From a virus: 37,419 nt of DNA. Of the stretch, positions 4,063-36,424 are shown piece after piece. Under the pieces are notes generated by a model. That model had not been told where the DNA came from and did no database searches. It worked only from the letters and a program-made list of their open reading frames with translations. Positions within the stretch are counted from its first letter, which is position 1, and the number at the start of each line of letters is the position of its first letter. The stretch is from UHGV virus genome UHGV-0125336; one strand, written 5' to 3'. The translations under genes and the position numbers were made by a program.

Positions 4063-4358
4063 GCGCCATCAACCACCAGGAATTACGCGAACTGGCGACT
4101 GACCTGCAACGAATGGCAACGCCTCAAAAATTACTGGCGTTTCGCGCAATGCTCTCGCCGTCTGCTGTGCTGGCGCTGCTGGATGAGCTGGAGCACGCCA
4201 GAACCACACCTCTCGCCATTCGCCTGACGCTCCGTCATGAAATCGAGGATTTCTGCGCGACGTTGGAGGCGCCAGGCGAACCGGAAACGCCGGAAGCAAT
4301 ACAGCAAGAGCTGCTGCAACGCATTGACAAGGTTTTTGATTTTTTTCTGAACCACTAA
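4059..4358 (+). CDS. Phage early protein, unknown function
   Basis: 99-aa acidic, helical ORF. Start overlaps the upstream stop. Confidence 0.5.
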   Translation: MSAINHQELRELATDLQRMATPQKLLAFRAMLSPSAVLALLDELEHARTTPLAIRLTLRHEIEDFCATLEAPGEPETPEAIQQELLQRIDKVFDFFLNH

Positions 4359-4480
4359 GAAACCAGAACATGCACACACAAAAAAACCGCTTGCCATGCC
4401 GCAATCAGTCAGGTTACATTTCCGCTGCACCTCACAAAACGGGTGCCGGGTTTCGCAGCCTGCTGACTACACAAGCGCAC

Positions 4481-4502
4481 AACCGCGCCAGCGGTTTTTT
4501 TG
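4481..4502 (+). terminator. Candidate intrinsic terminator inside the early operon
   Basis: AACCGC-GCCA-GCGGTT hairpin followed by a T7 run, within the 320-bp non-coding gap 4359..4680. Confidence 0.4.
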
Positions 4503-4680
4503 TGCGTACTGTATTGCCACGTTTTTTTCGCGTCAGAATTATGGCGGGGCGTACGGGGCCGACTTCGGTCGGGCCGGGTTCTTGTGTAGCCGGTACTGCG
4601 AACCTCGTACGTCTCGCCACCCACAGTTTCGCAGCTCTGGATGGTGAGTTTTCACAACTTACTACACAAGGGGCCACACC

Positions 4681-4911
4681 ATGGCAAACCGCAAACCACA
4701 CCGCGCTATCGCGGAGCGTCGTCACATCCAGACTGAAATCAACCGCAGACTTTCCCGCGCATCACGCGTCGCGCAAATCATGCACATCAATATGCTGCAT
4801 GAGCGCAGCCACGCACTATCAAACATTTATTCCGCCTCTGTTTTCAGCTATCTGGCGGATGATCTGCACGAGCTTCAACAGCTCATCCAGCAGCAAAACA
4901 AACTCCATTAA
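4681..4911 (+). CDS. Phage early protein, unknown function
   Basis: 76-aa ORF with AAGGGG RBS 8 nt upstream. Confidence 0.5.
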   Translation: MANRKPHRAIAERRHIQTEINRRLSRASRVAQIMHINMLHERSHALSNIYSASVFSYLADDLHELQQLIQQQNKLH

Positions 4912-4983
4912 CTCCTGTTCCGGGCCTTTCCTGCACCTTGCGGCGGGAGGCCTTCGCACATCTGTAACAAGAGGATTGCCGCA

Positions 4984-5349
4984 ATGATTCTCGCCAACGA
5001 CTTTCTTGAATACCTGCTCAACACAGAACGTGATCTTGCCGCTCGCGTGCGTGATCGTTATGACATGTACCTGAAATCCCTGCCTGTACCGCAGCTCGCT
5101 GACGGAAAGATTGTTATTGATGGTCGCTACATGATTGACAGCCACGAGGGAAATTACAGGCTTTACCGCATTGAAGGTGGCACCCCGTCCGTTATTGGCA
5201 TTTACCAGCGCCCATCCACTGCAATCGTCGATGTGATTGCCGACAGCATCCGCATCACACATCGCCATGCCGACACAGAAGACACCGTGCTGGAAATTCA
5301 GCGGCTGGCTACAGTCTGCCGCGACACCCTGAATGGCATGACGAAGTAA
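4984..5349 (+). CDS. Phage early protein, unknown function
   Basis: 121-aa ORF immediately upstream of gene A. Confidence 0.55.
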   Translation: MILANDFLEYLLNTERDLAARVRDRYDMYLKSLPVPQLADGKIVIDGRYMIDSHEGNYRLYRIEGGTPSVIGIYQRPSTAIVDVIADSIRITHRHADTEDTVLEIQRLATVCRDTLNGMTK

Positions 5350-5355
5350 ATCACT

Positions 5356-8178
5356 ATGACGGCAGAGTACATCAGGGACTGGCAACAACCGCGCCACGCA
5401 GTGGGGCGTGAAGGAACGGGGATCCCCGCTCCTGAATCCGCGCTTTCCTCCTGGCTGGATGCCTACCGGGTAGAGAACGAGCACCGCCAGGAAATGGCTG
5501 ATGCGGCGTTCTCCGCAACGCTGCTGGGCAACCTGATTAATAAAAGCCTGGACGCACAGGAAAAACAGGACAAAACCATCACACTGGCAGGAGACGCCAG
5601 AAAACAGGCACGCGGCGCGGTGGATGAAGCCATGGCCTCGCTGCGCCTGCTGCCGTCCTATCTGCGCGATCCGCTTATTCGCCACCTCTCCTTCCTGCGC
5701 AAAAAACAGGAAGCCGATCGCCGGAAAGGCAAAAAGAGCTGGCAGGCTGAACACTACGCGCGCGGAACCCTGCGCAAAATATTCGAACGTCTGGATCGCA
5801 CTGACAGACGCTGGCTGACACCGGGTTATCGCTCCCTTGCCGGACGCGAACGCCTGGACGATTTGCTTTACCTGCCGCAGCTCAACAAACACCAGATACA
5901 GACGCTGGCCACCATGACGGCGGCGATGTTCAGCAGCACCTTCGAAAAACTCTGCGATGGCTTTGGCGCGACTGATGGCGAACTGACCATGGATGTAACG
6001 CTGAAGGCGTATCAGATGCTGGCCCGCATGGCGTTACACCTGCACGCCATGCCTCCACATTATGACGCACTGACAACAGACAAAGACCGGAGGAACGAAC
6101 CGGACACGGAGCTGCTGCCGGGCGCAATCCTCCGCCTGACCTGTGCGGAATGGTGGAAACGCAAACTGTGGCTGTTACGTTGCGAGTGGAGAGAAGAACA
6201 ACTCCGCGCCGCCTGTCTGGTTTCCAGAAAAACATCGCCCTATCTGAGCCAGGACGCGTTAAGCGAGTTTCGCGCACAGCGCGAGAAAACACGCGATTTC
6301 CTGAAAAGTTTCATGCTGGAAAATGAAGACGGGTTCACGATTGATCTCGAGACGGTGTATTACGCGGGAGTAAGTAACCCGGTTCACCGTAAGGCAGAAA
6401 TGATGGCCACCATGAAGGGACTGGAACTTCTGGCCGAAGCCCGTAGCGACAGAGCGGTGTTTCTGACCGTCACCTGCCCGTCAAAATACCACGCAACAAC
6501 GGAGAACGGTCATCCGAACCCCAAATGGAACGGGGCCACCATGCGCGACTCCAGCGATTACCTGGTTAACACGTTTTTTGCGGCAGTCCGCAAAAAACTG
6601 AACCGCGACGGCCTGCGCTGGTATGGCATCCGCACGGTGGAGCCTCACCATGACGGCACCGTGCACTGGCATATGATGGTCTTTGCTCATCCGGAAGAAA
6701 TCGACAGCATCGTGGCCATCACCCGCGATATTGCCATTCAGGAAGATCGTCACGAACTGGGCGATGATATTACTCCGCGCTTTAAGGCGGAGTATGTCGA
6801 CGGCTCAAAAGGCACACCAACCAGCTATATCGCGACCTACATCGGAAAAAACCTGGACAGCCGCGCCGTAGATGGCATCGACCCGAAAACGGGCAAGCCA
6901 CGCGTTGACCACGAAACCGGAAAATCAATGGCCGAGAGCGTGGAGCGCGCCATTGGCTGGGCGCGTCTTCATCGGGTCCGCCAGTTCCAGTTCTTTGGCA
7001 TCCCCTCCCGTCAGGTATGGCGTGAACTCCGCCGCCTTGCCAGCCAGATGGCACGCAACCCGGAAGGCCCGCAACGGCTGAAGGATGATGCAATGGATGC
7101 GGTACTCGCTGCCGCTGATGCCGGGTGTTTTGCCTCCTACATTGAAAAACAGGGTGGCGTGCTTGTTCCACGCAAGGACTACCTGATTCGCACCGCCTAC
7201 GACCTCGCAGATGAGCTGAACGATTACGGCGAACAGAGCGTACAGATTTACGGGATCTGGTCACCACTCATCGGGGAATCCTCCCGTGTGTGCACGCATC
7301 CGGATAACTGGAAGCTGGTAAGACGTAAACCGGAAGCGGAAGACAGCGCCCGCGAAAATGGTTTTGACCTTCAGGGCGGCCCTGCCGCCCCTTGGACTCG
7401 TGGCAATAACTGTCCCCGTGTACAGGAAACGGACAACAACGGGACAGAACAGCCGGAAGAACGGCCAGCACCGTGGCCGCAGCTTCCTGACGGCGTTGAC
7501 GTGAACGAATGGATGCGCTCACTGAAACGGCACGAACGCCGGGCGCTGATGCGTTCGCTTCGTGACAAACAGGCAAAAAACAGCAGTGATGAAATGCAGA
7601 GCTGGACACAGAGCCGCAAACAGCAGCGGCCTTTGCCTGATAACCACGAATTACTCGCTAAAGAATGGCGGGAATCTGCCGAATCTCTCGGCCTGCATAT
7701 CGGTGAACAGCAGATGCAGCACCTGTTACGGGGCGGCAGTCTGTACGTTGACGGCAGCATCATTGCACCGCAGGGATTTGAAATTGTACGCAAACCGGAT
7801 ACCCGACCGGACAGCCGAATCACGCAGCTCTGGCAGCGCCTGAGCCGTAACCACGGCGTAAGCAGTACGGAGATCCGCCATAACCCGGTCGCCAGCTATC
7901 TGGAACAGCTGAGGGCATCAGACCCCGAAGCCGCCGCACGCCTGGCATCCACACTTCAGCAAGACCAGAACACCATGAAAACACCCGTTACCGTGCTTTC
8001 TGACATGCTGCGCGCCATCCGCGACGCAGAGCACGCACAGAGAATCAGTGAAACCACTGAACGCGCCCGCCGCAAAGCAGACCTGCTGCGGGGTGGCCTG
8101 ACCAGTGGAAACAAAAAACAGACAGAAACGGGATTCACAAATCCCGTAAATGAGCAAAAAACGCGCCGCGATATATGA
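5356..8178 (+). CDS. A: Replication initiation endonuclease, P2 gpA-like (rolling-circle)
   Basis: 940-aa ORF in the A position. Contains an HHDGTVHWHMMVF metal-binding HxH-type motif and downstream tyrosines typical of HUH rolling-circle initiators. Confidence 0.9.
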   Translation: MTAEYIRDWQQPRHAVGREGTGIPAPESALSSWLDAYRVENEHRQEMADAAFSATLLGNLINKSLDAQEKQDKTITLAGDARKQARGAVDEAMASLRLLPSYLRDPLIRHLSFLRKKQEADRRKGKKSWQAEHYARGTLRKIFERLDRTDRRWLTPGYRSLAGRERLDDLLYLPQLNKHQIQTLATMTAAMFSSTFEKLCDGFGATDGELTMDVTLKAYQMLARMALHLHAMPPHYDALTTDKDRRNEPDTELLPGAILRLTCAEWWKRKLWLLRCEWREEQLRAACLVSRKTSPYLSQDALSEFRAQREKTRDFLKSFMLENEDGFTIDLETVYYAGVSNPVHRKAEMMATMKGLELLAEARSDRAVFLTVTCPSKYHATTENGHPNPKWNGATMRDSSDYLVNTFFAAVRKKLNRDGLRWYGIRTVEPHHDGTVHWHMMVFAHPEEIDSIVAITRDIAIQEDRHELGDDITPRFKAEYVDGSKGTPTSYIATYIGKNLDSRAVDGIDPKTGKPRVDHETGKSMAESVERAIGWARLHRVRQFQFFGIPSRQVWRELRRLASQMARNPEGPQRLKDDAMDAVLAAADAGCFASYIEKQGGVLVPRKDYLIRTAYDLADELNDYGEQSVQIYGIWSPLIGESSRVCTHPDNWKLVRRKPEAEDSARENGFDLQGGPAAPWTRGNNCPRVQETDNNGTEQPEERPAPWPQLPDGVDVNEWMRSLKRHERRALMRSLRDKQAKNSSDEMQSWTQSRKQQRPLPDNHELLAKEWRESAESLGLHIGEQQMQHLLRGGSLYVDGSIIAPQGFEIVRKPDTRPDSRITQLWQRLSRNHGVSSTEIRHNPVASYLEQLRASDPEAAARLASTLQQDQNTMKTPVTVLSDMLRAIRDAEHAQRISETTERARRKADLLRGGLTSGNKKQTETGFTNPVNEQKTRRDI

Positions 8179-8226
8179 AGCGCGCATAAAACAGGCAAAA
8201 ACGGGATTTCAGAATCCCGTAAACGA
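8115..8226. repeat. Two 39-bp direct repeats, each with a 7-bp inverted repeat (ACGGGAT-N6-ATCCCGT); candidate ParR-binding centromere/operator
   Basis: Copy 1 at 8115..8153 lies inside the A 3' end. Copy 2 at 8188..8226 lies between A and the parM-like gene. Palindrome centres are 73 bp apart (about 7 helical turns). Confidence 0.45.
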
Positions 8227-8254
8227 TTAATTAATCAACATAAGGAAAAGCGAC

Positions 8255-9214
8255 ATGAAAATTTGTATCGATGACGGCTCCACCAACATCAAGCTGGCAT
8301 GGACTGAGAACGGCGAACGCCGCAACGCCATCAGCCCGAACAGCTTCAAGTCGGAATGGTCTGCGCCGTTCGGTGGCACGCAGCCCGCGAACTACATGCT
8401 TGATGGCGTGCGCTATGGTTTTGATCCGGTCAGCGATCGCTTTGTCCAGACGACTGACACGCAATACCAGTACAGCGATGTGAATGTCATTGCCATTCAT
8501 CACGCGCTGGTCAAATCAGGCATCACGCCACAGGAGGTGGATGTGGTTGTCACCCTGCCACTGAGCGAGTATTTCGACACAAACGCACAGCCGGACATAG
8601 CCAACATCAACCGCAAAAAAGCGAACGTTATGCGCCCGGTGGAGTACCAGAACGGCGAAGCATTCACTATCCGTAACGTACGGGTTATGCCTGAATCCAT
8701 TCCGGCTGGCTTTAAGGCACTGGCTGACATGAGTCCGTTTGAATCCCTGCTGATTGTGGATTTAGGCGGAACCACGCTGGATGTGGCAAAGGTTCAGGGA
8801 CAACTGGCAGGTATCAGCCAGGTGTTTTGCGATCCACACGTAGGCGTTTCCCTGATGGCCGATGCCGTACTGTCGGTGATGGCCACTAACGGTATGCGTA
8901 CCAGTCACCACATCGCCAATACCATTATCGAACATCGCCATGATGAAGCCTGGCTGCGCCAGCACATCCACAATGACGCGCATTACGCCAGCCTGATGGC
9001 GGTTATTCGTGAAAAGGAAGAAACACTGAAACAACGCGTGATCCGCGCGCTGGCGGGTTTTTCGGGTTACGGGCGGGTGATGGTTGTCGGTGGCGGGGCA
9101 GAGATTGTGGCACCCGCTATCCGCGAAGCCTGCGGAGTTAATGCGACTTTCATCGCGGACGGGGTGCCACAGTTTGCTCTGGTTAATGGGCTGTACGCAA
9201 TGGGCAAGGAGTAA
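8255..9214 (+). CDS. parM: ParM/StbA-like actin-type segregation ATPase
   Basis: Collinear similarity to plasmid R1 ParM as recalled: N-terminal IDDGSTNIKL, YSDVNV..HHAL, KKAN, VMPESIPAG, DLGGTTLD, GVSL, VGGGAE, LVNG. Confidence 0.8.
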   Translation: MKICIDDGSTNIKLAWTENGERRNAISPNSFKSEWSAPFGGTQPANYMLDGVRYGFDPVSDRFVQTTDTQYQYSDVNVIAIHHALVKSGITPQEVDVVVTLPLSEYFDTNAQPDIANINRKKANVMRPVEYQNGEAFTIRNVRVMPESIPAGFKALADMSPFESLLIVDLGGTTLDVAKVQGQLAGISQVFCDPHVGVSLMADAVLSVMATNGMRTSHHIANTIIEHRHDEAWLRQHIHNDAHYASLMAVIREKEETLKQRVIRALAGFSGYGRVMVVGGGAEIVAPAIREACGVNATFIADGVPQFALVNGLYAMGKE

Positions 9215-9218
9215 ACCA

Positions 9219-9530
9219 ATGACGACACCAACCAGACGGATAAGTTTCTATCTGAAGCCCGCCGCCGTCAAGAACGAAGGCGAAGCATGCGCCTGGCTGG
9301 ACAGCCTTACACCAGAAGCCCGCAAAAGTGGTCAACGCGTGGCTTTTCTGGCCGGGCTGGCACTACTGAAAATGAATCCGGCAGAGGCTTACCGACTGGC
9401 TGCATGGGCTGATGATGAGGCGTTATCAATGACACAAACCAGGACAGAACGCCCCGCGTCACAGCCAGTATCAGCCGCACAGATAACCAGTCAGATGGCC
9501 GGAAATATCCGGGCGTTATTTCCCGAATAA
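9219..9530 (+). CDS. parR: ParR-like centromere-binding adaptor
   Basis: ISFYLKPAAV...LDSLTPEARKSGQRVAFLAGLALL...IRALFPE parallels recalled R1 ParR (IAFKLNPDV...LDSIPQGERSRLNRAALTAGLALY...LRSLFPK). AAGGAG RBS, 5 bp after parM. Confidence 0.6.
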   Translation: MTTPTRRISFYLKPAAVKNEGEACAWLDSLTPEARKSGQRVAFLAGLALLKMNPAEAYRLAAWADDEALSMTQTRTERPASQPVSAAQITSQMAGNIRALFPE

Positions 9531-9535
9531 CACAA

Positions 9536-9559
9536 CATCAGGGCGCATCCGCCCTGATG
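9536..9559. promoter_or_regulatory. Perfect 10-bp stem-loop between parR-like and the next gene
   Basis: CATCAGGGCG-CATC-CGCCCTGATG, 6 nt after the parR stop. No T-run follows, so it is a candidate operator or RNA structure, not a clean terminator. Confidence 0.35.
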
Positions 9560-9593
9560 ACTTTAACCCGGGAGCATAAACAAGGGGGACACA

Positions 9594-9926
9594 ATGCAAC
9601 ACATTGACAGAGAAAAAGCGCAGCGACTGATTGAGCGGATGGAAGCGCTGGCGAAAGAAGAAAATGTCAACATCCAAAAAATAGCTGAATGTGGCCAGAT
9701 AGTTCTTCGTCGTGAAAAAGACCTCAAACAACTGATGTCTGGCGAAACCAGCAAAACATGGACTTCAGGCGAGAAGACGGTTTATTGCAGCTTCTGCAAT
9801 AAATCCCAGTACGAAGTCACAAAGGTGATTGCCGGACCGTCTGTTTACATCTGCAATGAGTGCGTGGATTTGTGCAATGAAATTATCAGGAAAGAAGTGA
9901 CAGACAAAAAGGAAAAAAACGCATGA
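9594..9926 (+). CDS. Small protein with a C-terminal ClpX N-terminal zinc-binding-domain (C4) homolog
   Basis: The C-terminal 40 aa ([40 protein letters not shown]) is near-identical in pattern to the E. coli ClpX ZBD as recalled ([40 protein letters not shown]). No AAA+ domain follows. N-terminal 60 aa are helical and unrelated. Confidence 0.7.
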
Positions 9927-10237
9927 ACAGAAAACAGAAACAAGAGTTGAAATACTTCTTACGTAAAGAAATTGCCAGGCTTGAAGATGCAGAGTCACAA
10001 TCATCAGAAATTCCGTTCGGAATGGATATCAACGACGCCCGTATGCTCCAGGCATACCGCATAGCTCAGGCTGCACTACAGGCAAAACCGTCAGATGGAC
10101 TGGTTAGAGCAGTACATTTCTATGAACAGGTAAAGCGTGAGAATCCGCCAGTCGAAACCGGAGCATGGAAAGACGCTGTTGACTGGGTGCTCAAAGAGGC
10201 TTGCCAGTCTGTAAACATTGGCATCAAAGGAGAGTGA
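9923..10237 (+). CDS. Hypothetical protein
   Basis: 104-aa ORF. Start overlaps the upstream stop. Ends ...IGIKGE. Confidence 0.5.
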
Positions 10238-10239
10238 GA

Positions 10240-10731
10240 ATGCAAATTTCACCGGTTACTCTTCGTGTTGCGAAGGCGTTTATATCCAGACATCACCGAC
10301 ACAATAAACCCCCGGTGGGGCATAAATTCAGCATTGGTCTGAGAAATGATGCCGGAGAATTGATAGGTGTGGCGACAGCCGGTAGACCTGTTGCACGACA
10401 TTTGGACGATGGATTAACGCTTGAAGTAAATCGCACATGTACCACAGGAGAACGCAACGCTAACAGCGCGCTTTATGGTGCTGTCTGGCGGGCAGCAAAG
10501 GCTATGGGTTATCAACGTTGTATTACGTACACCCAGGCAGATGAATCAGGAGCATCTCTCCGCGCAGCTGGTTTTGTTCGTGTGAAAGAGCTTCCTCCAA
10601 GAAAAAGCTGGGCGGAATCAAGCGTCGCCCTGCGGAGTAAACGCGATCCGGTCGGAAACGGTGGTGTTCCTCGTGTGCTCTGGGAAATCAGGAGAATGAG
10701 TACCACTGGCATTCGCATCAAAGGAGAGTGA
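10240..10731 (+). CDS. Hypothetical protein
   Basis: 163 aa from ATG 10240, with AAGGAG RBS. Ends ...GIRIKGE. No motif identified with confidence. Confidence 0.5.
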   Translation: MQISPVTLRVAKAFISRHHRHNKPPVGHKFSIGLRNDAGELIGVATAGRPVARHLDDGLTLEVNRTCTTGERNANSALYGAVWRAAKAMGYQRCITYTQADESGASLRAAGFVRVKELPPRKSWAESSVALRSKRDPVGNGGVPRVLWEIRRMSTTGIRIKGE

Positions 10732-10732
10732 T

Positions 10733-10996
10733 ATGGCAACTTTGACAAAAAAAGAACAAGCATGGTTGAGCGAATTACAGGACGTTCTTGATCGCTGTCC
10801 ATCACCGAAAAAAATTGGTTTTTACACCATTGGCGATAAAAGCATTTACCTGTATGACCTGCGCCGCATGGATGAAATCATGGAGGCTCTTGATAATCGT
10901 TCGTCAATGGATTGGTGTGTTGCTGTCCATGATATGAATGCAGGGTTTGATGAAAAGATTTTGTTCCCCTCATCAGTTGAAAGCACAGCAGGATAA
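10733..10996 (+). CDS. Hypothetical protein
   Basis: 87-aa ORF starting 2 nt after the previous stop, behind the same duplicated junction sequence. Confidence 0.5.
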   Translation: MATLTKKEQAWLSELQDVLDRCPSPKKIGFYTIGDKSIYLYDLRRMDEIMEALDNRSSMDWCVAVHDMNAGFDEKILFPSSVESTAG

Positions 10997-11040
10997 GGAC
11001 CCAGCAAATATACACAACCTATAAAACACTAAAGCGCCTC

Positions 11041-11065
11041 AGGGGCGCTTTTTGTTTGCACAAAA
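11041..11065 (+). terminator. Intrinsic terminator closing the accessory operon
   Basis: AGCGCC-TCAG-GGGCGCT hairpin followed by TTTTTGTTT. Confidence 0.55.
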
Positions 11066-11091
11066 GTGCACAAATTTGCACAATTTTTTTG
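11065..11091. repeat. Three TGCACAA direct repeats at exact 10-bp phasing
   Basis: TGCACAA at 11065, 11075 and 11085, with a fourth copy at 11149. Candidate protein-binding array beside the cos region. Confidence 0.4.
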
Positions 11092-11099
11092 AACGACTT

Positions 11100-11507
11100 T
11101 TTACCCTTCCGGCCCGCATGGCGGCTGGATCCGTCAAGGATCCGTGCGTGCACAAAAAAACGCGCTTTTTCTGCGCGCAGGTGACGGGGGAACAGCCCGC
11201 GTTTCAGGGGGTAAATAGCATCCCCTGAACGATGTCGCAGCGACACAACAGAATGGCTGTATTTCTCACGCTGAGCGTGAAAAAGACGTGAGGGCTTTTG
11301 ATTTGATGGAGTGGAAGATAAGGCCGTCAAAATCGCACTGAGGCGGCGAGAACATGCAGTCAACGCGGTGGGATTGTGTAAGAGTCTGACTGTCGATGAT
11401 GGCAATCAGCAGGAAAGCATCGTGAAATTATCTGACTGATACAGGAGCTGGAGAGTCGGGGCATAAATTTTTTATGCCCCGGCGAAGCAGCAGACAAGCG
11501 AAGCGCG
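11100..11507. other. Putative cos / packaging region
   Basis: About 400 bp non-coding between the accessory operon terminator and the Q stop, matching the P2 cos position. GC-rich, several hairpins (11161-11180, 11202-11232, 11453-11478). Exact cohesive end not identified. Confidence 0.3.
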
Positions 11508-12554
11508 TCAGGATGTGGGCTGGGTGTCTAACAGTGCGTAAGGGTTAAAGCGGATCACCTCTTCGCCAAGCCAGTCATTGATGTGCTTCATGGCCTCCAT
11601 GACGGGCATCAGCTCGTTAATTGCGTAAACCCGCGCGGCCTTCTCCACATCACCAAACGCACTTTTTTCGCCCGGCATCGCCCCCATCAGTTGCGGCGGA
11701 ACGCGGTGCGCAGCCAGCACATCATCACGGGATGCCGCCTTAACATTCATGAACTCATCCTTTGCGGTGATCTGCTGGAACGGCAAAATTTGCACCCCCT
11801 CTTTGCCCCCGTTAGGCGCATGAATGAGCACGTTTTTAAACGCACCACCACCACGTGCCCCCTGTAGCGTTTCTTTCAGGGAGTCCATGCTTTCGCGGTT
11901 TACCTGCGCTGCACCGATGTAGATGATGCACCCGGCGTGGGATCCATTGTCGTAATACAGTTTTCTGAACATGTCCGCCGAATGAGACAGGCTGGCCGAG
12001 AGTAATGCGCCGAGATATTCCGGCATGCCGTAGATTTCCTGGTTAATGTCAGGATTCATCAGGTGGCACACTTTGCCAGGGCGAAACTGAAACGCGTCCT
12101 TGCCATCCTGCACATACCACCATGATTCAAGATCGCTTCCGCGTCGCATGTATTTCGCCAGGGCGTGCCGTAATTTAAGCGGTTCGCCGAGCATATTGCT
12201 TCGAAGCTCAAGGAATGCGTTACCGAACACAAACCAGTCCAGCGCCAGCGCCGAGAAATCCTGCCGGGAAAGCAACGGGTGCGGGATGTAGCAACCGAGT
12301 AATACATTGCGCTTAAAGTAAAGCGCAGACTGATGCCAGGACGTTTGCCGGGCAGCTCTTGCCAGACCGTACCAGTCCACCGGGGTTTCATACCACCGCC
12401 CGTTATCAGCACAGTACATATTGTCCAGCAGGTCATGCCCGGTCAGGCGATAAGGACCATCAAATGTGAATGCACTGAGCGATGATTCTTTCCTGAGCGC
12501 ATCAGCGAGATCAATGCGTGAACTCATGCGCACTTTTTTATTTTTTCTGCTCAT
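11508..12554 (-). CDS. Q: Portal protein, P2 gpQ-like
   Basis: 348-aa ORF with P2-typical position and orientation (Q and P leftward, divergent from O). Confidence 0.85.
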   Translation of the reverse strand: MSRKNKKVRMSSRIDLADALRKESSLSAFTFDGPYRLTGHDLLDNMYCADNGRWYETPVDWYGLARAARQTSWHQSALYFKRNVLLGCYIPHPLLSRQDFSALALDWFVFGNAFLELRSNMLGEPLKLRHALAKYMRRGSDLESWWYVQDGKDAFQFRPGKVCHLMNPDINQEIYGMPEYLGALLSASLSHSADMFRKLYYDNGSHAGCIIYIGAAQVNRESMDSLKETLQGARGGGAFKNVLIHAPNGGKEGVQILPFQQITAKDEFMNVKAASRDDVLAAHRVPPQLMGAMPGEKSAFGDVEKAARVYAINELMPVMEAMKHINDWLGEEVIRFNPYALLDTQPTS

Positions 12555-25783: not shown

Positions 25784-26068
25784 ATGGACTTAACCCCGGT
25801 GTTCCATGCACTTTGTGCGGTGGCCACTCAGTTTCTGGTAGGTCTTTTTACCGGAAACTGGGCTTACGGAGCGATAGCCGGTTGTACGTTCTTCATTGCG
25901 CGTGAACACACCCAGGCAGAATATCGCTGGATTGAAATGTTCGGGCATGGCAGGCGTATGAATATGCCGTGGTGGGGCGGTTTTGACCCACGCGCGTGGG
26001 ATATGGCAAGTCTGATGGATTTTGCAGTGCCGGTGGTGGCATGTCTGCTGGTCTGGCTGGTCGTATGA
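25784..26068 (+). CDS. Small two-TM membrane protein in the position normally held by gpG
   Basis: 94-aa ORF starting 2 nt after the H stop. Two hydrophobic segments. Not gpG-like. Confidence 0.5.
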   Translation: MDLTPVFHALCAVATQFLVGLFTGNWAYGAIAGCTFFIAREHTQAEYRWIEMFGHGRRMNMPWWGGFDPRAWDMASLMDFAVPVVACLLVWLVV

Positions 26069-26080
26069 CGTAGCAGGAAA

Positions 26081-26105
26081 CAGGGGGATTTGCCCCTGTT
26101 TTTTT
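26081..26105 (+). terminator. Intrinsic terminator of the H operon
   Basis: CAGGGG-GATTTG-CCCCTG hairpin followed by a T7 run. Confidence 0.55.
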
Positions 26106-26222
26106 GTTCAGAATGCAGCCTTCACCATTCGTCTCTAATCGTATTCAGTAATTCGCCCGCAGAAACAAACTAAAATTCATCCCCCACATCACGCCACTGA
26201 AAGCAGACGGTAAACTCCAGAT
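26106..26222 (-). pseudogene. Degenerate remnant of a gpU 3' end
   Basis: About 75-80% identical by eye to 26888..27010 (the intact U 3' end) in the same orientation. Reading frame preserved at the stop (RMVKAAF* versus KMATAAF*), but an in-frame TAG lies upstream. Confidence 0.6.
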
Positions 26223-26525
26223 TTTCAAACCAGCGTCAGAAGTATTTAAATGGCACCAGATGTAATATGCAGGCGATTAATATGGTGTGCTTAAAGATCA
26301 TAAAAGCGGGCAACATTAAAACTCCGGGCTGTGTAAATTACCGCCACTCATAATCAGAGATGAAAACAGAATTAAACTGGCGGCGTGGATTGTATACATA
26401 AAATAAGTTCAGTTGTTGACTTTCACTTCCGTGAGTTGATGAAGGTTATTACAATACACCGGTATGATCTCTCCTCCTTAAAAGGGAGGACTTTTCAGAA
26501 CGCAGAAATTATTTATAATCCCGTA

Positions 26526-26576
26526 GTGTTCTACACATGCCAACATTCTTTGCCCGCCCCGTGCGGGCTTTTTTTT
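26526..26576 (+). ncRNA. Candidate small RNA 1 (about 50 nt)
   Basis: Weak promoter (TTTTCA-N16-TATAAT, -10 at 26514-26519) upstream of a strong terminator (GCCCGC-CCCGT-GCGGGC plus T8, 26552-26576). No convincing ORF. Confidence 0.25.
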
Positions 26577-26666
26577 GCCATAAAGACACAGTAACAAACA
26601 GAATTGTAATCAGAGCAATAAAATCATGAAAAACATTTTCATTGATGACGATAACAATTAAAAATA

Positions 26667-26696
26667 TTGCATTAAATGATTCCCGTTCAATATAAT
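26667..26696 (+). promoter_or_regulatory. Sigma70-like promoter (TTGCAT-N18-TATAAT)
   Basis: -35 TTGCAT at 26667-26672 and -10 TATAAT at 26691-26696. Drives the short transcript ending at the 26740-26763 terminator. Confidence 0.45.
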
Positions 26697-26703
26697 CCCC
26701 CTG

Positions 26704-26763
26704 CAACCAGAAAAATTAAATCTTCACACAATGCATGTTGCCCTCTTTATGAGGGCTTTTTTA
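26704..26763 (+). ncRNA. Candidate small RNA 2 (about 60 nt)
   Basis: Between the TTGCAT/TATAAT promoter and the terminator GCCCTC-TTTAT-GAGGGC plus T6. No ORF. Shares a CACA-ATGC-TTGCCC motif with candidate 1. Confidence 0.35.
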
Positions 26764-26854
26764 TTTCCCGAATATCACCATTGCCATCATCGGGCGATTT
26801 ATATATAGTCAGAATGTATTGACAACATTTTGCTTCTTTTCCATGAAGGCCATA

Positions 26855-26886
26855 AGGGAGTGCTTTTTACACTCCCTCTTTTTTTA
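26855..26886 (+). terminator. Intrinsic terminator abutting the U stop codon
   Basis: AGGGAGTG-CTTTTTA-CACTCCCT followed by a T8 run. Plus-strand oriented. Confidence 0.6.
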
Positions 26887-26887
26887 T

Positions 26888-27352
26888 TCAGAATGCCGCT
26901 GTCGCCATTTTGTCTTTAAGCGTGTTCAGTAATTCGCCCGCAGAAGCAGACTGAAACCTCTCCCTCATATCCTCATCACACCGCTGAAAGCTGATGGAGA
27001 ACTCAATCTTTTTTGCCTTTCCGTAACGATCCAGTTCGGAGCGGGTGGTCTGTAATCCCGTAATCACGTACATTCCGTAAATCTGCCCCGTGCCATCAAT
27101 CAGCGGCCAGGGACATCCTGTGTAGGCCTGGGTGTTCAGTAGTGTCAGCGACACCTCACCGCCGGTAATTTCCGGGTACAGCAAACCGGACAGCGTGATC
27201 TGGTCATCACCTGCGCCGATATACTGCCAGGCCGCAGAGCGGTTAATGCGCTCATTTTTCACATGTCGCCATGTTTTGCTCTGCTGGATCTGCTGATGTG
27301 GCAGCGTGCGCAGCTCAAAAACAAACATGCCGTAGATCATCATCATGGTCAT
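26888..27352 (-). CDS. U: Tail protein, P2 gpU-like
   Basis: ...ITLSGLLYPEITGGEVSL...IDGTG... parallels recalled gpU (...VTLSGTLYPELTGGRLSL...IEGTG...). Confidence 0.85.
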   Translation of the reverse strand: MTMMMIYGMFVFELRTLPHQQIQQSKTWRHVKNERINRSAAWQYIGAGDDQITLSGLLYPEITGGEVSLTLLNTQAYTGCPWPLIDGTGQIYGMYVITGLQTTRSELDRYGKAKKIEFSISFQRCDEDMRERFQSASAGELLNTLKDKMATAAF

Positions 27353-33739: not shown

Positions 33740-34000
33740 ATGTTCCGTTGTCCGCTTTGTGGCGCATCTGCCCGTATCCGCACCAGTCGTTCGGAAAATG
33801 ATTCAAACACCGTACGGAAAAAATATTACCAGTGTAACAACCTGGAATGCGGCATAAGTTTCTCAACACTGGAAGCTTTCCATAAATTCACATCGAAACA
33901 CGCCCCCGGCGTTCACTCTTCAGAAGGTATCCCGTGGCATGAGTTGCCAGCTTCACACAGGGGAAACAATCAGATGAGTTTGCCTTTACCTCAGAATTAA
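33740..34000 (+). CDS. ogr: Ogr/Delta-family zinc-finger late-gene activator
   Basis: MFRCPLCG...YYQCNNLEC: a CxxC...CxxxxC zinc finger at the N-terminus as in P2 Ogr (MFHCPLC...YHQCQNVNC as recalled). Longer C-terminal tail than P2 Ogr. Confidence 0.75.
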   Translation: MFRCPLCGASARIRTSRSENDSNTVRKKYYQCNNLECGISFSTLEAFHKFTSKHAPGVHSSEGIPWHELPASHRGNNQMSLPLPQN

Positions 34001-34190: not shown

Positions 34191-34331
34191 ATGTCGCAAA
34201 AATCGCTTACGGCCATCACGTTCTGCGTGACGGCAATCCTCATCATCTGGATGCTGCACGGTTCGCTGTGCGAAATACGGATGAGCTTCTGGGGAGCGGA
34301 GTTTGCGGCGTTCTTACAGTGTAAGCAGTAA
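34191..34331 (+). CDS. hok: Hok/Gef-family type I toxin (46 aa)
   Basis: MSQKSLTAITFCVTAILIIWMLHGSLCEIRMSFWGAEFAAFLQCKQ: one TM helix, then the SLCEI motif and an AAFL.CK C-terminus, closest to HokA as recalled. SD AAGGAG (34177-34182) sits in a hairpin. A GNRA-loop hairpin follows the stop (34341-34362). Confidence 0.7.
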   Translation: MSQKSLTAITFCVTAILIIWMLHGSLCEIRMSFWGAEFAAFLQCKQ

Positions 34332-34393
34332 GGAAACCGCGACGGGGGAGCAATCCCCCGTCAATCGGTTGCCAGGGTAAGGTCGATAAGGCA

Positions 34394-34404
34394 CCCTATC
34401 TCAC
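34394..34404. repeat. Left target-site duplication (CCCTATCTCAC)
   Basis: Perfect 11-bp direct repeat of 35890..35900, immediately outside the left inverted repeat. Confidence 0.6.
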
Positions 34405-34545
34405 CAATGCCGTTCAGTTAGTTAAGGAATTGAGGTTCGATAGCCCGAACCTCGCGCAGAGGCAATATGACCGAAAGCCTGATTCCTTAATGCCCAAGAT
34501 GAGTCTCTATTCATAAAAGCGCTTAACTACTCGACATTGGCGGTG
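34405..34545. repeat. Left terminal inverted repeat (about 140 bp)
   Basis: Contains nested hairpins (TTAAGGAAT...ATTCCTTAA and GAGGTTCG-ATAGCC-CGAACCTC). Inverse match to 35750..35889. Confidence 0.6.
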
Positions 34546-34740
34546 TATCCCCCGCATTGTCTGAATGCCGCCTCTTACCTTTCGCGGTCAACTGACGACT
34601 TCTAGTTCTAGAACGCCTTGATTTTTTGTACTTGTACATTGAAAAATAACCATAAATTGTTAGCCTGTGCAGTAGACTCAGTGGCGGTAACTGGTCAGCA
34701 TGAAGTGTAAAGTGAATAACGAAGCTCTAAAATTATAGGG

Positions 34741-35574
34741 ATGGTCATGAATAATAAGCTAAAGGTAATTGAGTTAAATAGTCTTGATCTGTTTCGTAAA
34801 GAATTACTAACTACTATAAAGCCAGAGAAAGTAGAGAAATTACTTAGATGGTATCTTCAATCATATGGCGGTGTTAATTTCAAGTTCGGTTATGACAGAC
34901 CAATTTTTAGAGCGCGAAAGTGCCCAAATGAATGCGGATATAATAACATCAGTGAGATATATCCCCCTCCACCAGAAAAATGTAAAATAGGCCGAATGAA
35001 TGATGATGGACAAGCTATCTTCTATGGCGCTTATAGTATCGGAACAGCTTTAGCCGAAATTAATGCAAAAGAAGGGGATTATGTTCACATAGCTCACTTT
35101 AAGATGCCGGAAAATTCAGAGTCTGGAATGCGATGTTTTGCTATCGGTGAGGTCTTTAATGTGTATCACGGTGTAAATACAATTTCAATTGAAGTGTTTA
35201 ATGAAATTCGCGACATCATTAGCAGAATTGGTAAGGACGACATCCGAGCTTTGCTATCATATTTGTATATGGATGCCCTTTCTGCTGAGTTGCTTAATAG
35301 TATCAATGCCCATGAGGTAAATTATATTTACTCAAGAATTTTTTGCCGTCTTCTTCTTGATAAATACCCTGATGTTGATGGTCTTATTTATCCTAGCGCT
35401 AAAATAAAAGGGGCCTCAAATATCGCTTTGCGCACAGAAACAGTTAAATCGAGAATGCATTTAGTTGCTAATCTTGTGTTTAAAGTAAATAAAATTTATC
35501 CATATGGAATAGTAGATTTCAGTATAGTAAAACAAGCCAAAGGACATACATCAGATGGGCGCATCGTTTGGTGA
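34741..35574 (+). CDS. RES-domain-like protein (putative NAD+-targeting toxin fold) with an N-terminal extension
   Basis: KIGRMNDDGQAIFYGAYSIGTALAEI fits the RES pattern (G-R-W/M-N..G...Y.A.S...A..E), and DGLIYPSAKIKGASNIAL fits the second conserved block. No adjacent Xre/antitoxin-like ORF. AT-rich. Confidence 0.5.
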   Translation: MVMNNKLKVIELNSLDLFRKELLTTIKPEKVEKLLRWYLQSYGGVNFKFGYDRPIFRARKCPNECGYNNISEIYPPPPEKCKIGRMNDDGQAIFYGAYSIGTALAEINAKEGDYVHIAHFKMPENSESGMRCFAIGEVFNVYHGVNTISIEVFNEIRDIISRIGKDDIRALLSYLYMDALSAELLNSINAHEVNYIYSRIFCRLLLDKYPDVDGLIYPSAKIKGASNIALRTETVKSRMHLVANLVFKVNKIYPYGIVDFSIVKQAKGHTSDGRIVW

Positions 35575-35749
35575 GCCAAACTTTTAGTTAGCTGATTGAA
35601 AAACCGATGCGTCAGTTTGCACTGCATGTGGTGTATGGGAAGCGCGGGCTTGTAGTGCAGGTCATTTCAGAAGAAGCTAACGAGAAAGCTTAGACATACT
35701 GTGACTACTAAACAAGCAGAAAGCCCGTGTTTATGGGGGGCAATCCACA

Positions 35750-35889
35750 CAACAGGCGATGTCGATTAGTTAATACACTTGTATGAATAGAGACTCATTT
35801 TTGTGCATTAAGGAATCAGGCTTTCAGTCATCTTGCCTCTGCGCGAGGTTCGGGCTATCGAACCTCAATTCCTTAACTGAACTACATTG
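35750..35889. repeat. Right terminal inverted repeat (about 140 bp)
   Basis: Reverse complement aligns with 34405..34545, with a 4-bp indel and scattered mismatches. Confidence 0.6.
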
Positions 35890-35900
35890 CCCTATCTCAC
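35890..35900. repeat. Right target-site duplication (CCCTATCTCAC)
   Basis: Perfect 11-bp direct repeat of 34394..34404, immediately outside the right inverted repeat. Confidence 0.6.
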
Positions 35901-36087
35901 AGCTCTAAATGCAAAAATCCCATGAAACTGTGGGTATTTCATTACACACTGACACTGCTCTACCTTTCTATATGTATCACTCTAAACCAGTTAATCAATT
36001 GGCACTTATCAACAACAAAAAATCTGATAAAATCAAAATGTTTTGTAACAAATTTCAGCTTGTAGTGTTCCAAAGGAGACGGATTAC

Positions 36088-36420
36088 ATGGCATTAATCA
36101 AATGTCCTGAATGCCAGAAAGAGGTCAGCGATTCAGCATTATGTTGCCCTGCTTGTGGTAAACAACTGAAAAAACTTAAGCGTTCATTTTTTGGAAAACT
36201 CATTAAATGGGCTTTTATATTTTTTAATATTTTTATGATCTATACACTTTTAGTTGGACTAGGAGGCGCTGATGAAATAATAAACAATACCACATCCGAT
36301 GCCGAAAAAGCTGGGGCAGTTATTGGTACGGGCTTAGGTTTAATTGCCATTGGAGGCTTATGGGTTATTGGCGATATAATTATCGGAATTTTAGTGTTTC
36401 TTACTAAACCAAAGGGATAA
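36088..36420 (+). CDS. Zinc-ribbon membrane protein, unknown function
   Basis: N-terminal CPEC...CPAC zinc ribbon followed by two hydrophobic helices. AAGGAG RBS. AT-rich. Confidence 0.6.
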   Translation: MALIKCPECQKEVSDSALCCPACGKQLKKLKRSFFGKLIKWAFIFFNIFMIYTLLVGLGGADEIINNTTSDAEKAGAVIGTGLGLIAIGGLWVIGDIIIGILVFLTKPKG

Positions 36421-36424
36421 TAAA

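What the first reader, a model, noticed from the sequence alone, without database searches (positions are those of the whole stretch)
8115..10996. Accessory slot between A and cos carries a parMR-like module, a ClpX zinc-finger mimic and three unknown genes instead of tin/old
In P2 the interval between replication gene A and cos holds tin and old, and in related prophages it is a known hot spot for anti-phage and accessory cargo. Here it holds a six-gene, same-strand, tightly coupled operon that ends at a strong terminator (11041-11065). None of the six genes looks like a recognised defence system. The mix of a segrosome pair, an isolated ClpX N-domain homolog and three unknowns has no precedent that I can recall and could be a functional unit.
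Basis: partly seen in the sequence, partly recalled or inferred. Interest (0 to 1): 0.85.

Follow-up and report, generated by a model that had tools for sequence, protein, structure and literature searches.

The report
Catalogued prophage partition module plus shuffled cargo
The region is a plasmid-type DNA-partition gene pair that is standard in this common family of E. coli prophages, followed by four small accessory genes that shuffle independently between phages, and the whole arrangement was already listed in a published survey, so it is ordinary rather than a new six-gene system.

Summary

The interpretation ("no precedent", "could be a functional unit") is not supported:

- **Backbone, not cargo.** The window is a P88-like (Xuanwuvirus) prophage, not P2. 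A–parM–parR is conserved backbone in this group and occurs in 1307 of 5426 complete E. coli genomes.
- **Small variable slot.** Only about 1.5 kb (9560–11055) varies between relatives.
- **Independent genes.** The four cargo genes have separate distributions: 170, 154 and 978 genomes for g3, g5 and g6, against 52 for the full set. They are joined by a 17-nt linker that also ends genes in the ea22 region of lambdoid phages.
- **One "unknown" now has a family assignment.** g5 is an XF1762-family GNAT whose model best matches phage Mu Mom. It lacks Mom's essential insertion.
- **Already published.** Rousset et al. 2022 reported that about a quarter of P2-like phages carry a partition system in this hotspot. 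Their Table S5 lists "StbA + Plasmid_stab_B + zf-C4_ClpX + 3 hypothetical" with the same ParR and ClpX-finger accessions.
- **No defence match.** None of the six proteins hits PADLOC.

The functions of the ClpX-finger protein, XF1762 and g6 remain untested.

The parts
5356..8178 (+). Replication gene A (context). It is the left anchor of the slot, and its last 67 nt contain the first parC-like repeat.
   Evidence: Pfam Phage_GPA 9e-130; phrog_91 'nicking at origin of replication'.
8112..8153 (.). Repeat 1 of the candidate parC centromere/ParR operator. The perfect palindrome ACGGGATTCACAAATCCCGT lies at 8128-8147.
   Evidence: the repeat finder families D1/I4. The pattern occurs only twice in the window, and no shuffle of 100 gave two matches.
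8185..8226 (.). Repeat 2 of the candidate parC. It is 81% identical to repeat 1 and starts 73 nt after it. The palindrome ACGGGATTTCAGAATCCCGT lies at 8201-8220, 35 nt upstream of the parM ATG.
   Evidence: No further half-sites cluster nearby.
8255..9214 (+). parM, the actin-like partition ATPase (319 aa).
   Evidence: StbA_N 3.6e-82 plus ParM C-terminal domain 1.3e-68. PDB 1mwk (R1 ParM) E = 2.5e-93 over the full length.
9219..9530 (+). parR (StbB family), the centromere-binding adaptor (103 aa).
   Evidence: PF10784 2.5e-24. phrog_2515 'partition protein' matched end to end, 4.4e-58. This is a phage-specific clade: only 7 of 72,556 plasmid records match.
9536..9559 (+). Strong hairpin just after the parR stop, with no downstream U-run. 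It marks the end of the conserved backbone and the left edge of the variable cargo.
   Evidence: -22.9 kcal/mol, z = -4.0. Homology with other P88-like phages ends at window 9523-9556. The stem is kept and the loop varies among relatives.
9594..9926 (+). g3: 110-aa protein with a roughly 55-aa helical N-terminal region followed by a ClpX-type C4 zinc-binding domain (ZBD). It has no AAA+ module.
   Evidence: PF06689 6.8e-18. PDB 1ovx/2ds5 (E. coli ClpX ZBD) E = 7e-20, with 30 of 36 core residues identical. Full-length relatives occur only in Escherichia and Salmonella. Divergent homologs occupy the same A-portal slot in P2-like prophages that lack parMR.
9923..10237 (+). g4: 104-aa chimeric protein. 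Its start overlaps the g3 stop (ATGA).
   Evidence: No Pfam hit; phrog_26213, phrog_660 and phrog_250. The N-terminal 60 aa are 92% identical to a 135-aa slot protein of strain E423, which lacks g3. The C-terminal ~50 aa are near-identical to a protein of lambdoid phage 689R5.
10240..10731 (+). g5: XF1762-family GNAT-fold protein (163 aa), Mom-like.
   Evidence: NF045478 4.9e-61, 204.8 bits against a cutoff of 50. phrog_1384 'Mom-like DNA modification protein' 1e-41. AF2 model pLDDT 86.8. Best PDB fold match is Mu Mom 8bv8, TM 0.74. Near-identical copies lie in the early-left region of Kapi1 and Stx phages.
10733..10996 (+). g6: 87-aa acidic alpha/beta protein of unknown function.
10221..10237 (+). 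Cassette linker GCATCAAAGGAGAGTGA at the g4/g5 junction. It encodes ...IKGE*, the stop codon, and the ribosome-binding site for the next gene.
   Evidence: Exact repeat, none expected by chance. Its 15-nt core (ATCAAAGGAGAGTGA) ends Ea22-like or XF1762 genes in Kapi1, 689R5 and VSe13.
10715..10731 (+). Second copy of the same cassette linker, at the g5/g6 junction.
11031..11057 (+). Intrinsic terminator that belongs to the cargo. Backbone shared with P88 resumes at about 11055.
   Evidence: Stem of 9 pairs followed by TTTTTGTTTG. z = -4.8. In the alignment with P88 and PhiR44_2, identity with P88 starts just after it.

Best explanation
The interval is two separate things joined end to end, not one six-gene system.

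**(1) 8112-9560: a type II (R1-type) ParMRC partition cassette.** It is part of the conserved backbone of P88-like (Xuanwuvirus) P2-family prophages.
- Inferred mechanism: ParR dimers bind the two 20-bp palindromes that straddle the end of gene A. ParM-ATP filaments are captured by these complexes and push sister phage circles apart, as shown for plasmid R1.
- These phages are almost always integrated, and the cassette follows A in the same orientation with no consensus promoter of its own. I therefore infer that it acts while the genome is extrachromosomal, that is after infection or excision, during A-driven replication.
- The closest precedent is AlpAC of prophage CGP3. The alternative is steady plasmid maintenance.

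**(2) 9560-11055: a ~1.5-kb variable cargo of four small, independently assorting accessory genes with their own terminator.** They are drawn from the shared gene pool of enterobacterial temperate phages. g4's C-terminal half, g5 and g6 are cassettes of the lambdoid/P22-like exo-xis (ea22) region, exchanged through a 17-nt linker that carries RBS and stop. Most likely individual roles, all inferred:
- g3 is a free copy of the ClpX substrate/adaptor-docking domain. It would compete with or pair with host ClpX N-domains and so alter ClpXP substrate choice.
- g5 is a Mom-like GNAT transferase acting on nucleic acid.
- g4 and g6 are small early-phase modulators of unknown target.

None of the six is a recognised defence system.
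For: **Backbone versus cargo.**
- A+parM+parR are 95-98% identical in P88, P884B11, Shae_phiSM, 520873, 503458 and 569R5. Sequence downstream of parR differs in each.
- Backbone resumes at about 11055.

**Prevalence in 5426 complete E. coli genomes.**
- parMR 1307, g3 170, g5 154, g6 978, all six 52.
- 1453 of 1455 parMR places are chromosomal.

**ParMRC identity.** for ParM and ParR; for the palindromes.

**Independent assortment.**
- g3 homologs sit in the A-portal slot of prophages without parMR, g4, g5 or g6.
- Strain E423 has a clean deletion of g3 but keeps the g4 N-terminal module.
- g5 occurs without g6 in Kapi1, and g6 without g5 in VSe13 and 689R5.
- Linker motif.

**Expression.** No sigma-70 consensus site was found upstream of parM or g3.

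**g3.** The ZBD core is 83% identical to E. coli ClpX.

**g5.** GNAT fold with Mom as top structural hit. H18 and R64 align with Mom H58 and the essential R111.

**Published context.** Rousset et al. 2022. AlpAC precedent: PMC4446434 and PMC5539076. Exo-xis/ea22 genes are early-transcribed lysis-lysogeny modulators: PMC7093339 and PMC10834534.
Against: - All functional statements are inference. Nothing here shows ParR binding, filament formation, ClpX interaction or any modification.
- The candidate parC has only two sites. Characterised parC loci have many tandem iterons (R1 has 10), so it may be only an operator.
- The promoter scan is crude. A weak ParR-controlled promoter could give expression in lysogens.
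- The set of six is stably kept at 97-100% identity in 52 genomes, including UTI89 and ST131. Some functional interplay inside this particular combination therefore cannot be excluded.
- One complete 34.5-kb P88-like genome is deposited as a circular 'plasmid'. This fits the plasmid-maintenance idea of Rousset et al. as well as it fits an excised replicative form.
- g5 lacks Mom's essential HTH-like insertion and falls below Pfam's Mom threshold, so its substrate may not be DNA.
Confidence: 0.78

Rival explanations
1. One reading: all six genes form one co-evolved functional module, a new kind of segrosome-linked system occupying the tin/old slot.
For: The genes share one strand, are tightly packed and end at a single terminator. 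The block is kept at 97-100% identity in 52 E. coli genomes.
Against: Each gene has its own distribution. Related phages keep parMR with other cargo. g3 occurs without parMR. g5 and g6 occur in lambdoid phages without the rest. g3 is cleanly deleted in E423.
Confidence: 0.04
2. The four-gene cargo (or part of it) is an unrecognised anti-phage defence system expressed from the prophage, as with tin/old and the many systems found in the P2 gpA-gpQ hotspot.
For: The gpA-gpQ interval is a validated defence hotspot in P2-like phages (PMC9122126). GNAT enzymes and protease-linked proteins occur in some defence systems (own knowledge).
Against: No PADLOC hit for any protein. No own promoter was detected, and the genes are co-oriented with the early lytic operon. 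g5 and g6 homologs sit in the early-left lytic operon of lambdoid phages rather than in lysogen-expressed moron positions. The genes do not travel together.
Confidence: 0.08
3. ParMRC lets these prophages persist as low-copy plasmids (a carrier or plasmid-prophage state), as Rousset et al. suggested, rather than acting during lytic replication.
For: The cassette is a close relative of a bona fide plasmid stability system. One full-length circular 34,461-bp P88-like genome is deposited as a plasmid. The authors' suggestion is in PMC9122126.
Against: 1453 of 1455 occurrences are chromosomal. The phage genomes whose ends were examined here carry an integrase. The other plasmid-borne copy examined is a prophage integrated in a 129-kb plasmid. 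A repressed P2-type genome has no known theta replicon for plasmid upkeep (own knowledge of P2 biology).
Confidence: 0.25
4. g3 is not a ClpX decoy but an adaptor. Its ZBD pairs with a ClpX N-domain, and its N-terminal helical region recruits a specific host or phage protein for degradation.
For: The ZBD is a dimerisation domain in ClpX (PDB 1ovx is a dimer; own knowledge). g3 has a conserved ~55-aa N-terminal region in addition to the ZBD, kept in divergent homologs P0016 and P0019.
Against: No partner has been identified. The N-terminal region has no family match. No experiment bears on it.
Confidence: 0.3

Closest known systems
ParMRC (StbA/StbB/parC) type II partition system of plasmid R1/NR1
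   Same: ParM is full length and about 47% identical, with E = 2.5e-93 to PDB 1mwk. ParR belongs to the same Pfam family (PF10784). The gene order is cis-site, parM, parR.
   Different: It is carried by an integrating P2-family prophage rather than a plasmid. The cis-site is two 20-bp palindromes 73 bp apart rather than ten 11-bp iterons (R1 parC from own knowledge). ParR is too diverged to hit plasmid ParRs by tblastn: 7 of 72,556 records match.
gpA-gpQ hotspot of E. coli P2-like prophages (Rousset et al. 2022, PMC9122126)
   Same: Same interval. The paper reports a putative partition system in about a quarter of P2-like phages and lists this arrangement with the same ParR and ClpX-finger accessions.
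   Different: The paper catalogued it and did not include it among the systems evaluated for defence (no StbA entry in Table S2). Whether the ParMRC, ClpX-finger and other genes work remains uncharacterised.
AlpAC of Corynebacterium glutamicum prophage CGP3 (PMC4446434, PMC5539076)
   Same: An integrated prophage encodes an actin-like ATPase and a DNA-binding adaptor with specific sites. These are needed for efficient viral DNA replication and transport after induction.
   Different: AlpC is a distant actin-like lineage in an actinobacterium. Here ParM is a close R1-type homolog, and no experiment exists.
Phage Mu Mom (PDB 8bv8; PMC13219725)
   Same: g5 has a GNAT fold with Mom as its best structural match, TM 0.74. 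Mom H58 and R111 have invariant counterparts H18 and R64.
   Different: g5 is 163 aa against the 241-aa annotated Mom ORF. It lacks the HTH-like insertion (Mom 175-209) that is essential for momylation. No clear R151 counterpart was found. The Pfam Mom score is below cutoff. No com-like regulator is adjacent.
N-terminal zinc-binding domain of E. coli ClpX (PDB 1ovx, 2ds5-2ds8)
   Same: All four Cys are present and 30 of 36 core residues are identical.
   Different: g3 is a stand-alone 110-aa protein with a novel N-terminal helical region and no AAA+ module.
exo-xis / ea22 region cassettes of lambdoid and P22-like phages (PMC7093339, PMC10834534)
   Same: The g4 C-terminal half, g5 and g6 are 95-98% identical to genes in that region of Kapi1, VSe13, 689R5 and Stx phages. 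They share the same RBS+stop linker.
   Different: Here they sit in a P2-family genome downstream of parMR. g4 does not reach the Pfam Ead_Ea22 model.

Membership tests
Type II ParMRC partition system | Actin-fold ParM ATPase with both domains | tested here: met
   StbA_N 3.6e-82 and ParM C-terminal domain 1.3e-68. PDB 1mwk E = 2.5e-93 over residues 2-317.
Type II ParMRC partition system | ParR/StbB adaptor gene immediately downstream of parM | tested here: met
   PF10784 2.5e-24, with a 4-nt gap after parM.
Type II ParMRC partition system | Upstream centromere made of repeated ParR-binding sites | tested here: inconclusive
   There are two 42-nt repeats, each with a perfect 20-bp palindrome. 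There are only two sites and no further half-sites. Binding was not tested.
Type II ParMRC partition system | Resides on and stabilises an autonomously replicating plasmid | tested here: not met
   1453 of 1455 places in E. coli genomes are chromosomal. Plasmid-borne cases are an integrated copy and one 34.5-kb circular phage genome.
Type II ParMRC partition system | ATP-dependent filament formation and DNA segregation | not testable with these tools
   Needs microscopy or biochemistry.
ClpX AAA+ unfoldase | N-terminal C4 zinc-binding domain | tested here: met
   PF06689 6.8e-18. PDB 1ovx E = 6.9e-20.
ClpX AAA+ unfoldase | AAA+ ATPase module | tested here: not met
   The protein is 110 aa. The ClpX equivalog models match only their positions 3-54 of 414-418 and score 49.5-51 bits against cutoffs of 359-371.
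Mom DNA-modification enzymes (PF25680) | GNAT fold closest to Mom | tested here: met
   Model pLDDT 86.8. Top Foldseek hit is 8bv8 Mom, TMq 0.74, against at most 0.67 for the other listed GNAT hits.
Mom DNA-modification enzymes (PF25680) | Score at or above Pfam's gathering threshold | tested here: not met
   21.8 bits against a cutoff of 27.1. Some members of the same XF1762 family that are about 85% identical do carry the PF25680 flag.
Mom DNA-modification enzymes (PF25680) | Essential catalytic residues R111, S124 and R151 (PMC13219725) | tested here: inconclusive
   R111 aligns with invariant R64, and H58 with H18. S124 may correspond to invariant S75. By hand alignment of 'ADESG' to 'ADERCG', R151 falls on S102. 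The sequence alignment does not extend past Mom residue 122.
Mom DNA-modification enzymes (PF25680) | HTH-like insertion (Mom ~175-209) required for activity | tested here: not met
   g5 is 163 aa. The model has a 26-residue, mostly coil, lower-confidence linker between strands 112-117 and 144-150, containing only a 4-residue helix.
Mom DNA-modification enzymes (PF25680) | Gly-tRNA-dependent N6-adenine modification of dsDNA | not testable with these tools
   Needs nucleoside LC-MS or a restriction-protection assay.
XF1762 family (NCBIfam NF045478) | Score above the curated cutoff | tested here: met
   204.8 bits against a cutoff of 50, E = 4.9e-61. More than 7700 relatives.
Known anti-phage defence systems (PADLOC-DB v2) | Any component protein matches a defence-system model | tested here: not met
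   No hit at E <= 0.1 for any of the six proteins.
Lambdoid exo-xis/ea22-region cassettes | Near-identical copies in that region of lambdoid or P22-like phages, joined by the shared linker | tested here: met
   This holds for the g4 C-terminal half, g5 and g6 only, not for g3 or parMR.

The most novel reading that the evidence does not exclude
Two of the cargo genes could be uncharacterised phage effectors worth testing on their own.

(a) The ClpX-finger protein recurs in the A-portal slot of diverse Escherichia and Salmonella P2-family prophages, with or without parMR. It may be a phage-made decoy or adaptor that reprogrammes host ClpXP.

(b) XF1762 is a very large, highly conserved family (more than 7700 proteins; about 70-90% identity to g5 among the 31 enterobacterial members aligned). 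It may be a minimal Mom-type transferase that makes a different nucleic-acid modification without Mom's DNA-binding insertion.

Neither has any literature in the held library.
Probability: 0.3. Interest if true: 0.55.

Novelty: already known. Interest (0 to 1): 0.2.

Why it matters
As a six-gene system it does not matter, because it is a mosaic that is already annotated and catalogued.

Three open questions remain:

1. Why do about a quarter of E. coli P2-family prophages, which integrate, keep an intact R1-type partition machine?
2. What does a free ClpX docking domain do for a phage?
3. What is the substrate of the very widespread Mom-like XF1762 enzymes?

Each question can be tested with simple genetics in well-studied strains such as UTI89 or ST131, or with phage P88.

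Tried and rejected
- **Defence system.** PADLOC gave nothing.
- **P2 proper.** No match to the P2 cos sequence recalled from memory, within 3 mismatches. DNA identity is to P88-like phages instead.
- **Sequence link between XF1762 and Mu Mom.** hhalign probability was 4% and hmmsearch scored -0.3 bits. Only the N-terminal 75 residues align, so the Mom link rests on the fold match, the PHROG hit and the sub-threshold Pfam hit.
- **g3-g4 as an obligatory translationally coupled pair.** Rejected. The g4 N-terminal module occurs without g3 in E423 and in NZ_CP148288, and g3 homologs occur without g4.
- **g5-g6 as a toxin-antitoxin pair.** Rejected, because each occurs without the other.
- **Recent capture of host clpX.** Rejected. 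Megablast of g3 hits 170 genomes, not all 5426.
- **Own promoter.** The scan found no consensus site upstream of parM or g3.
- **Rfam.** Nothing inside the region.
- **Literature.** Searches for XF1762, ClpX C4-type zinc finger/PF06689, Xuanwuvirus, and ParM in P2-like phages returned nothing relevant. The exception is Rousset et al..
- **PDB sequence search.** No hits for ParR or g5.

Full report
**What is in the sequence.**

Between replication gene A (5356-8178) and the portal gene (11508-12554, minus strand) there are six plus-strand ORFs:

| Gene | Coordinates |
|---|---|
| g1 | 8255-9214 |
| g2 | 9219-9530 |
| g3 | 9594-9926 |
| g4 | 9923-10237 |
| g5 | 10240-10731 |
| g6 | 10733-10996 |

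- The block ends at an intrinsic terminator, 11031-11051 plus a T-run. Its RNA fold has z = -4.8.
- Two 42-nt direct repeats, 8112-8153 and 8185-8226, straddle the end of gene A. Each contains a perfect palindrome ACGGGATT-N4-AATCCCGT. None of 100 shuffles gave two matches.
Two small corrections apply. The terminator lies about 10 nt to the left of the stated position. The g5 start is the ATG at 10240.

**Identities.**

- **g1** is a full-length ParM. Both Pfam domains match, at 3.6e-82 and 1.3e-68. PDB 1mwk (R1 ParM) matches at 2.5e-93.
- **g2** belongs to the ParR/StbB family: PF10784 at 2.5e-24, and phrog_2515 matched end to end.
- **g3** (110 aa) has a helical N-terminal region and a ClpX C4 zinc-binding domain. 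In the core of that domain 30 of 36 residues are identical to E. coli ClpX. There is no AAA+ module.
- **g4** has no Pfam hit.
- **g5** is an XF1762-family protein, scoring 204.8 bits against a cutoff of 50. It also matches the PHROG labelled 'Mom-like DNA modification protein' at 1e-41.
- **g6** matches only phrog_1714, which has no known function.
- None of the six proteins hits PADLOC.

**Where the window comes from.**

- Region 8100-11100 is 100% identical to Escherichia phage PhiR44_2 and to prophages in ST131 and other E. coli. It is 97.6% identical to the copy in UTI89.
- The nearest named relatives are phage P88 and other members of the genus Xuanwuvirus (Peduoviridae).
- This is a P2-family phage but not P2. 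No match to the P2 cos sequence (recalled from memory) is present.

**Backbone versus cargo.**

- In P88, P884B11, Shae_phiSM, 520873, 503458, 569R5 and four sampled E. coli chromosomes, A-parM-parR is conserved at 95-98% identity. Homology stops at window 9523-9556.
- That position is a strong hairpin (9536-9559, z = -4.0) with no U-run.
- Backbone shared with P88 resumes at about 11055, just after the terminator.
- The variable slot in this genus is therefore only about 1.5 kb (9560-11055), and parMR lies outside it.
- In relatives the slot holds one or two unrelated small genes. Examples are an ead/Ea22-like protein, a 135-aa protein, a putative membrane protein on the opposite strand, and an IS3 fragment.

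**The six genes are not co-conserved.** Counts among 5426 complete E. coli genomes:

| Element | Genomes | Note |
|---|---|---|
| parMR | 1307 | 1453 of 1455 places are chromosomal |
| g3 | 170 | |
| g5 | 154 | |
| g6 | 978 | |
| all six contiguous | 52 | |

- Divergent g3 homologs (44-54% identical) sit in the same A-portal slot of Salmonella and E. coli P2-like prophages. Those prophages have no parMR, g4, g5 or g6.
- Strain E423 shows a clean deletion of g3 but keeps the g4 N-terminal module.
- g4 is a chimera. Its first 60 residues are shared with slot proteins of P88-like phages. Its last ~50 residues are shared with a protein of lambdoid phage 689R5.
- g5 and g6 are 95-98% identical to genes in the early-left (exo-xis/ea22) region of Kapi1, VSe13, 689R5 and Stx phages, and there each occurs without the other.
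- The g4/g5 and g5/g6 junctions share an exact 17-nt linker, GCATCAAAGGAGAGTGA, which carries the RBS and the stop codon.
- Its 15-nt core (ATCAAAGGAGAGTGA) also ends Ea22-like or XF1762 genes in those lambdoid phages. I infer that it is the homology patch through which cassettes are exchanged.

**Structure-based checks.**

- The g5 model is confident, with pLDDT 86.8.
- Its best PDB match is the crystal structure of phage Mu Mom (8bv8), with TM 0.74 and E = 4.8e-8. The other listed hits, all generic GNATs, reach TM 0.67 at most.
- Mom was recently shown to transfer glycine from Gly-tRNA to N6 of adenine in dsDNA. Residues R111, S124 and R151 and an HTH-like insertion (175-209) are essential for this (PMC13219725).
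- In g5 the invariant H18 and R64 align with Mom H58 and R111.
- Against membership, g5 is 163 aa against the 241-aa annotated Mom ORF. It has only a 26-residue coil where the insertion would be. It scores below Pfam's Mom cutoff, and direct profile-sequence similarity is marginal.
- g5 therefore resembles Mom in fold but fails two membership features. I file it as XF1762, a Mom-like GNAT of unknown substrate.

**What is already known.**

- Rousset et al. 2022 (PMC9122126) analysed exactly this gpA-gpQ interval in 18,150 E. coli loci.
[quoted passage not shown] - Those are the same ParR and ClpX-finger accessions that RefSeq assigns in a genome identical to the window over 8100-11100.
- RefSeq already names four of the six genes.
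- The arrangement is therefore catalogued but functionally untested. StbA does not occur in their table of systems evaluated for defence.
- I found no paper on XF1762 or on stand-alone ClpX zinc-finger phage proteins in the held library.

**Most likely mechanism (inferred).**

- *ParMRC.* ParR binds the two palindromes. ParM-ATP filaments capture the ParR-DNA complexes and separate sister circles, as established for R1.
  - The phage integrates (integrase at 240-1259) and is chromosomal in nearly all genomes.
  - The cassette follows A in the same orientation, with no consensus promoter of its own.
  - I therefore favour action on extrachromosomal phage DNA during early or lytic replication, as for AlpAC of prophage CGP3 (PMC4446434).
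  - Plasmid-style carriage is the main rival. One 34.5-kb circular record is compatible with either reading.
  - A two-site parC is atypical and could be only an operator.
- *g3.* It is a free ClpX docking domain. It could titrate adaptors and ZBD-dependent substrates, or pair with ClpX N-domains as an adaptor.
- *g5.* It is a Mom-like acyl or aminoacyl transferase. Its many invariant basic residues would be compatible with a nucleic-acid substrate.
- *g4 and g6.* They are early-phase modulators of the exo-xis type. The best-studied gene of that region, ea22, biases the lysis-lysogeny decision (PMC7093339).

**Verdict.**

- Interest is low. The residual value lies in the individual uncharacterised genes and in the unexplained prevalence of ParMRC in integrating prophages.

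Noticed in passing
window 34191-37318: The prophage end beyond ogr (33740-34000) carries four features: a Hok/Gef ORF (34191-34331); a lone RES-domain protein (34741-35574, PF08808 4.5e-12) in 37-39% GC DNA that is absent from PhiR44_2; a zinc-ribbon membrane protein (36088-36420); and a VasI-like secreted protein (36425-37318). This end looks more like a toxin or defence cargo slot than the A-cos interval.
   Followed up: partly
window 4427-4624: Rfam finds isrK (4427-4501, 64 bits) and a C4 antisense RNA (4537-4624, 83 bits) inside the early region, overlapping the 205-aa ORF 4370-4987. This is the P1/P7-type antisense control element of an antirepressor.
   Followed up: no
L001 (PhiR44_2) about 11500-12097, against window 11500-11510: PhiR44_2 is identical to the window across the six genes but has an extra ~614-bp insert with a 525-bp ORF next to the portal gene, which the window and P88 lack. 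This is a second small variable site.
   Followed up: partly
L017 (E. coli E423) 4276-4380: This prophage keeps the post-parR hairpin and the first ~25 nt of g3, then jumps to the last ~20 nt of g3 and the g4 start. This is a clean in-frame-like deletion of the ClpX-finger gene.
   Followed up: yes
L016 (NZ_CP148288.1, whole record): A complete 34,461-bp P88-like genome with int, A, parMR and all structural genes is deposited as a circular 'plasmid' of an E. coli isolate. It is either an excised replicative form or true plasmid carriage.
   Followed up: partly
L011-L014: ClpX zinc-finger homologs (44-54% identical) recur in the A-to-portal slot of Salmonella and E. coli P2-like prophages that have no parMR. 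Each follows one or two small unknown genes after A.
   Followed up: partly
L022 (UTI89) 4408-4668: UTI89 and related strains carry the same six genes plus a seventh 86-aa gene before the backbone resumes.
   Followed up: no
L023 (NZ_CP183151.1) 1-34300: In E. coli strain 455 a P88-like prophage with the six-gene set is integrated in a 129-kb plasmid that itself encodes phage tail and baseplate genes. A second copy is in the chromosome.
   Followed up: no
window 26000-27000: GC content drops to 41% between the tail-fibre assembly gene and gpU, the position of the P2 Z/fun slot. Only short ORFs lie there.
   Followed up: no
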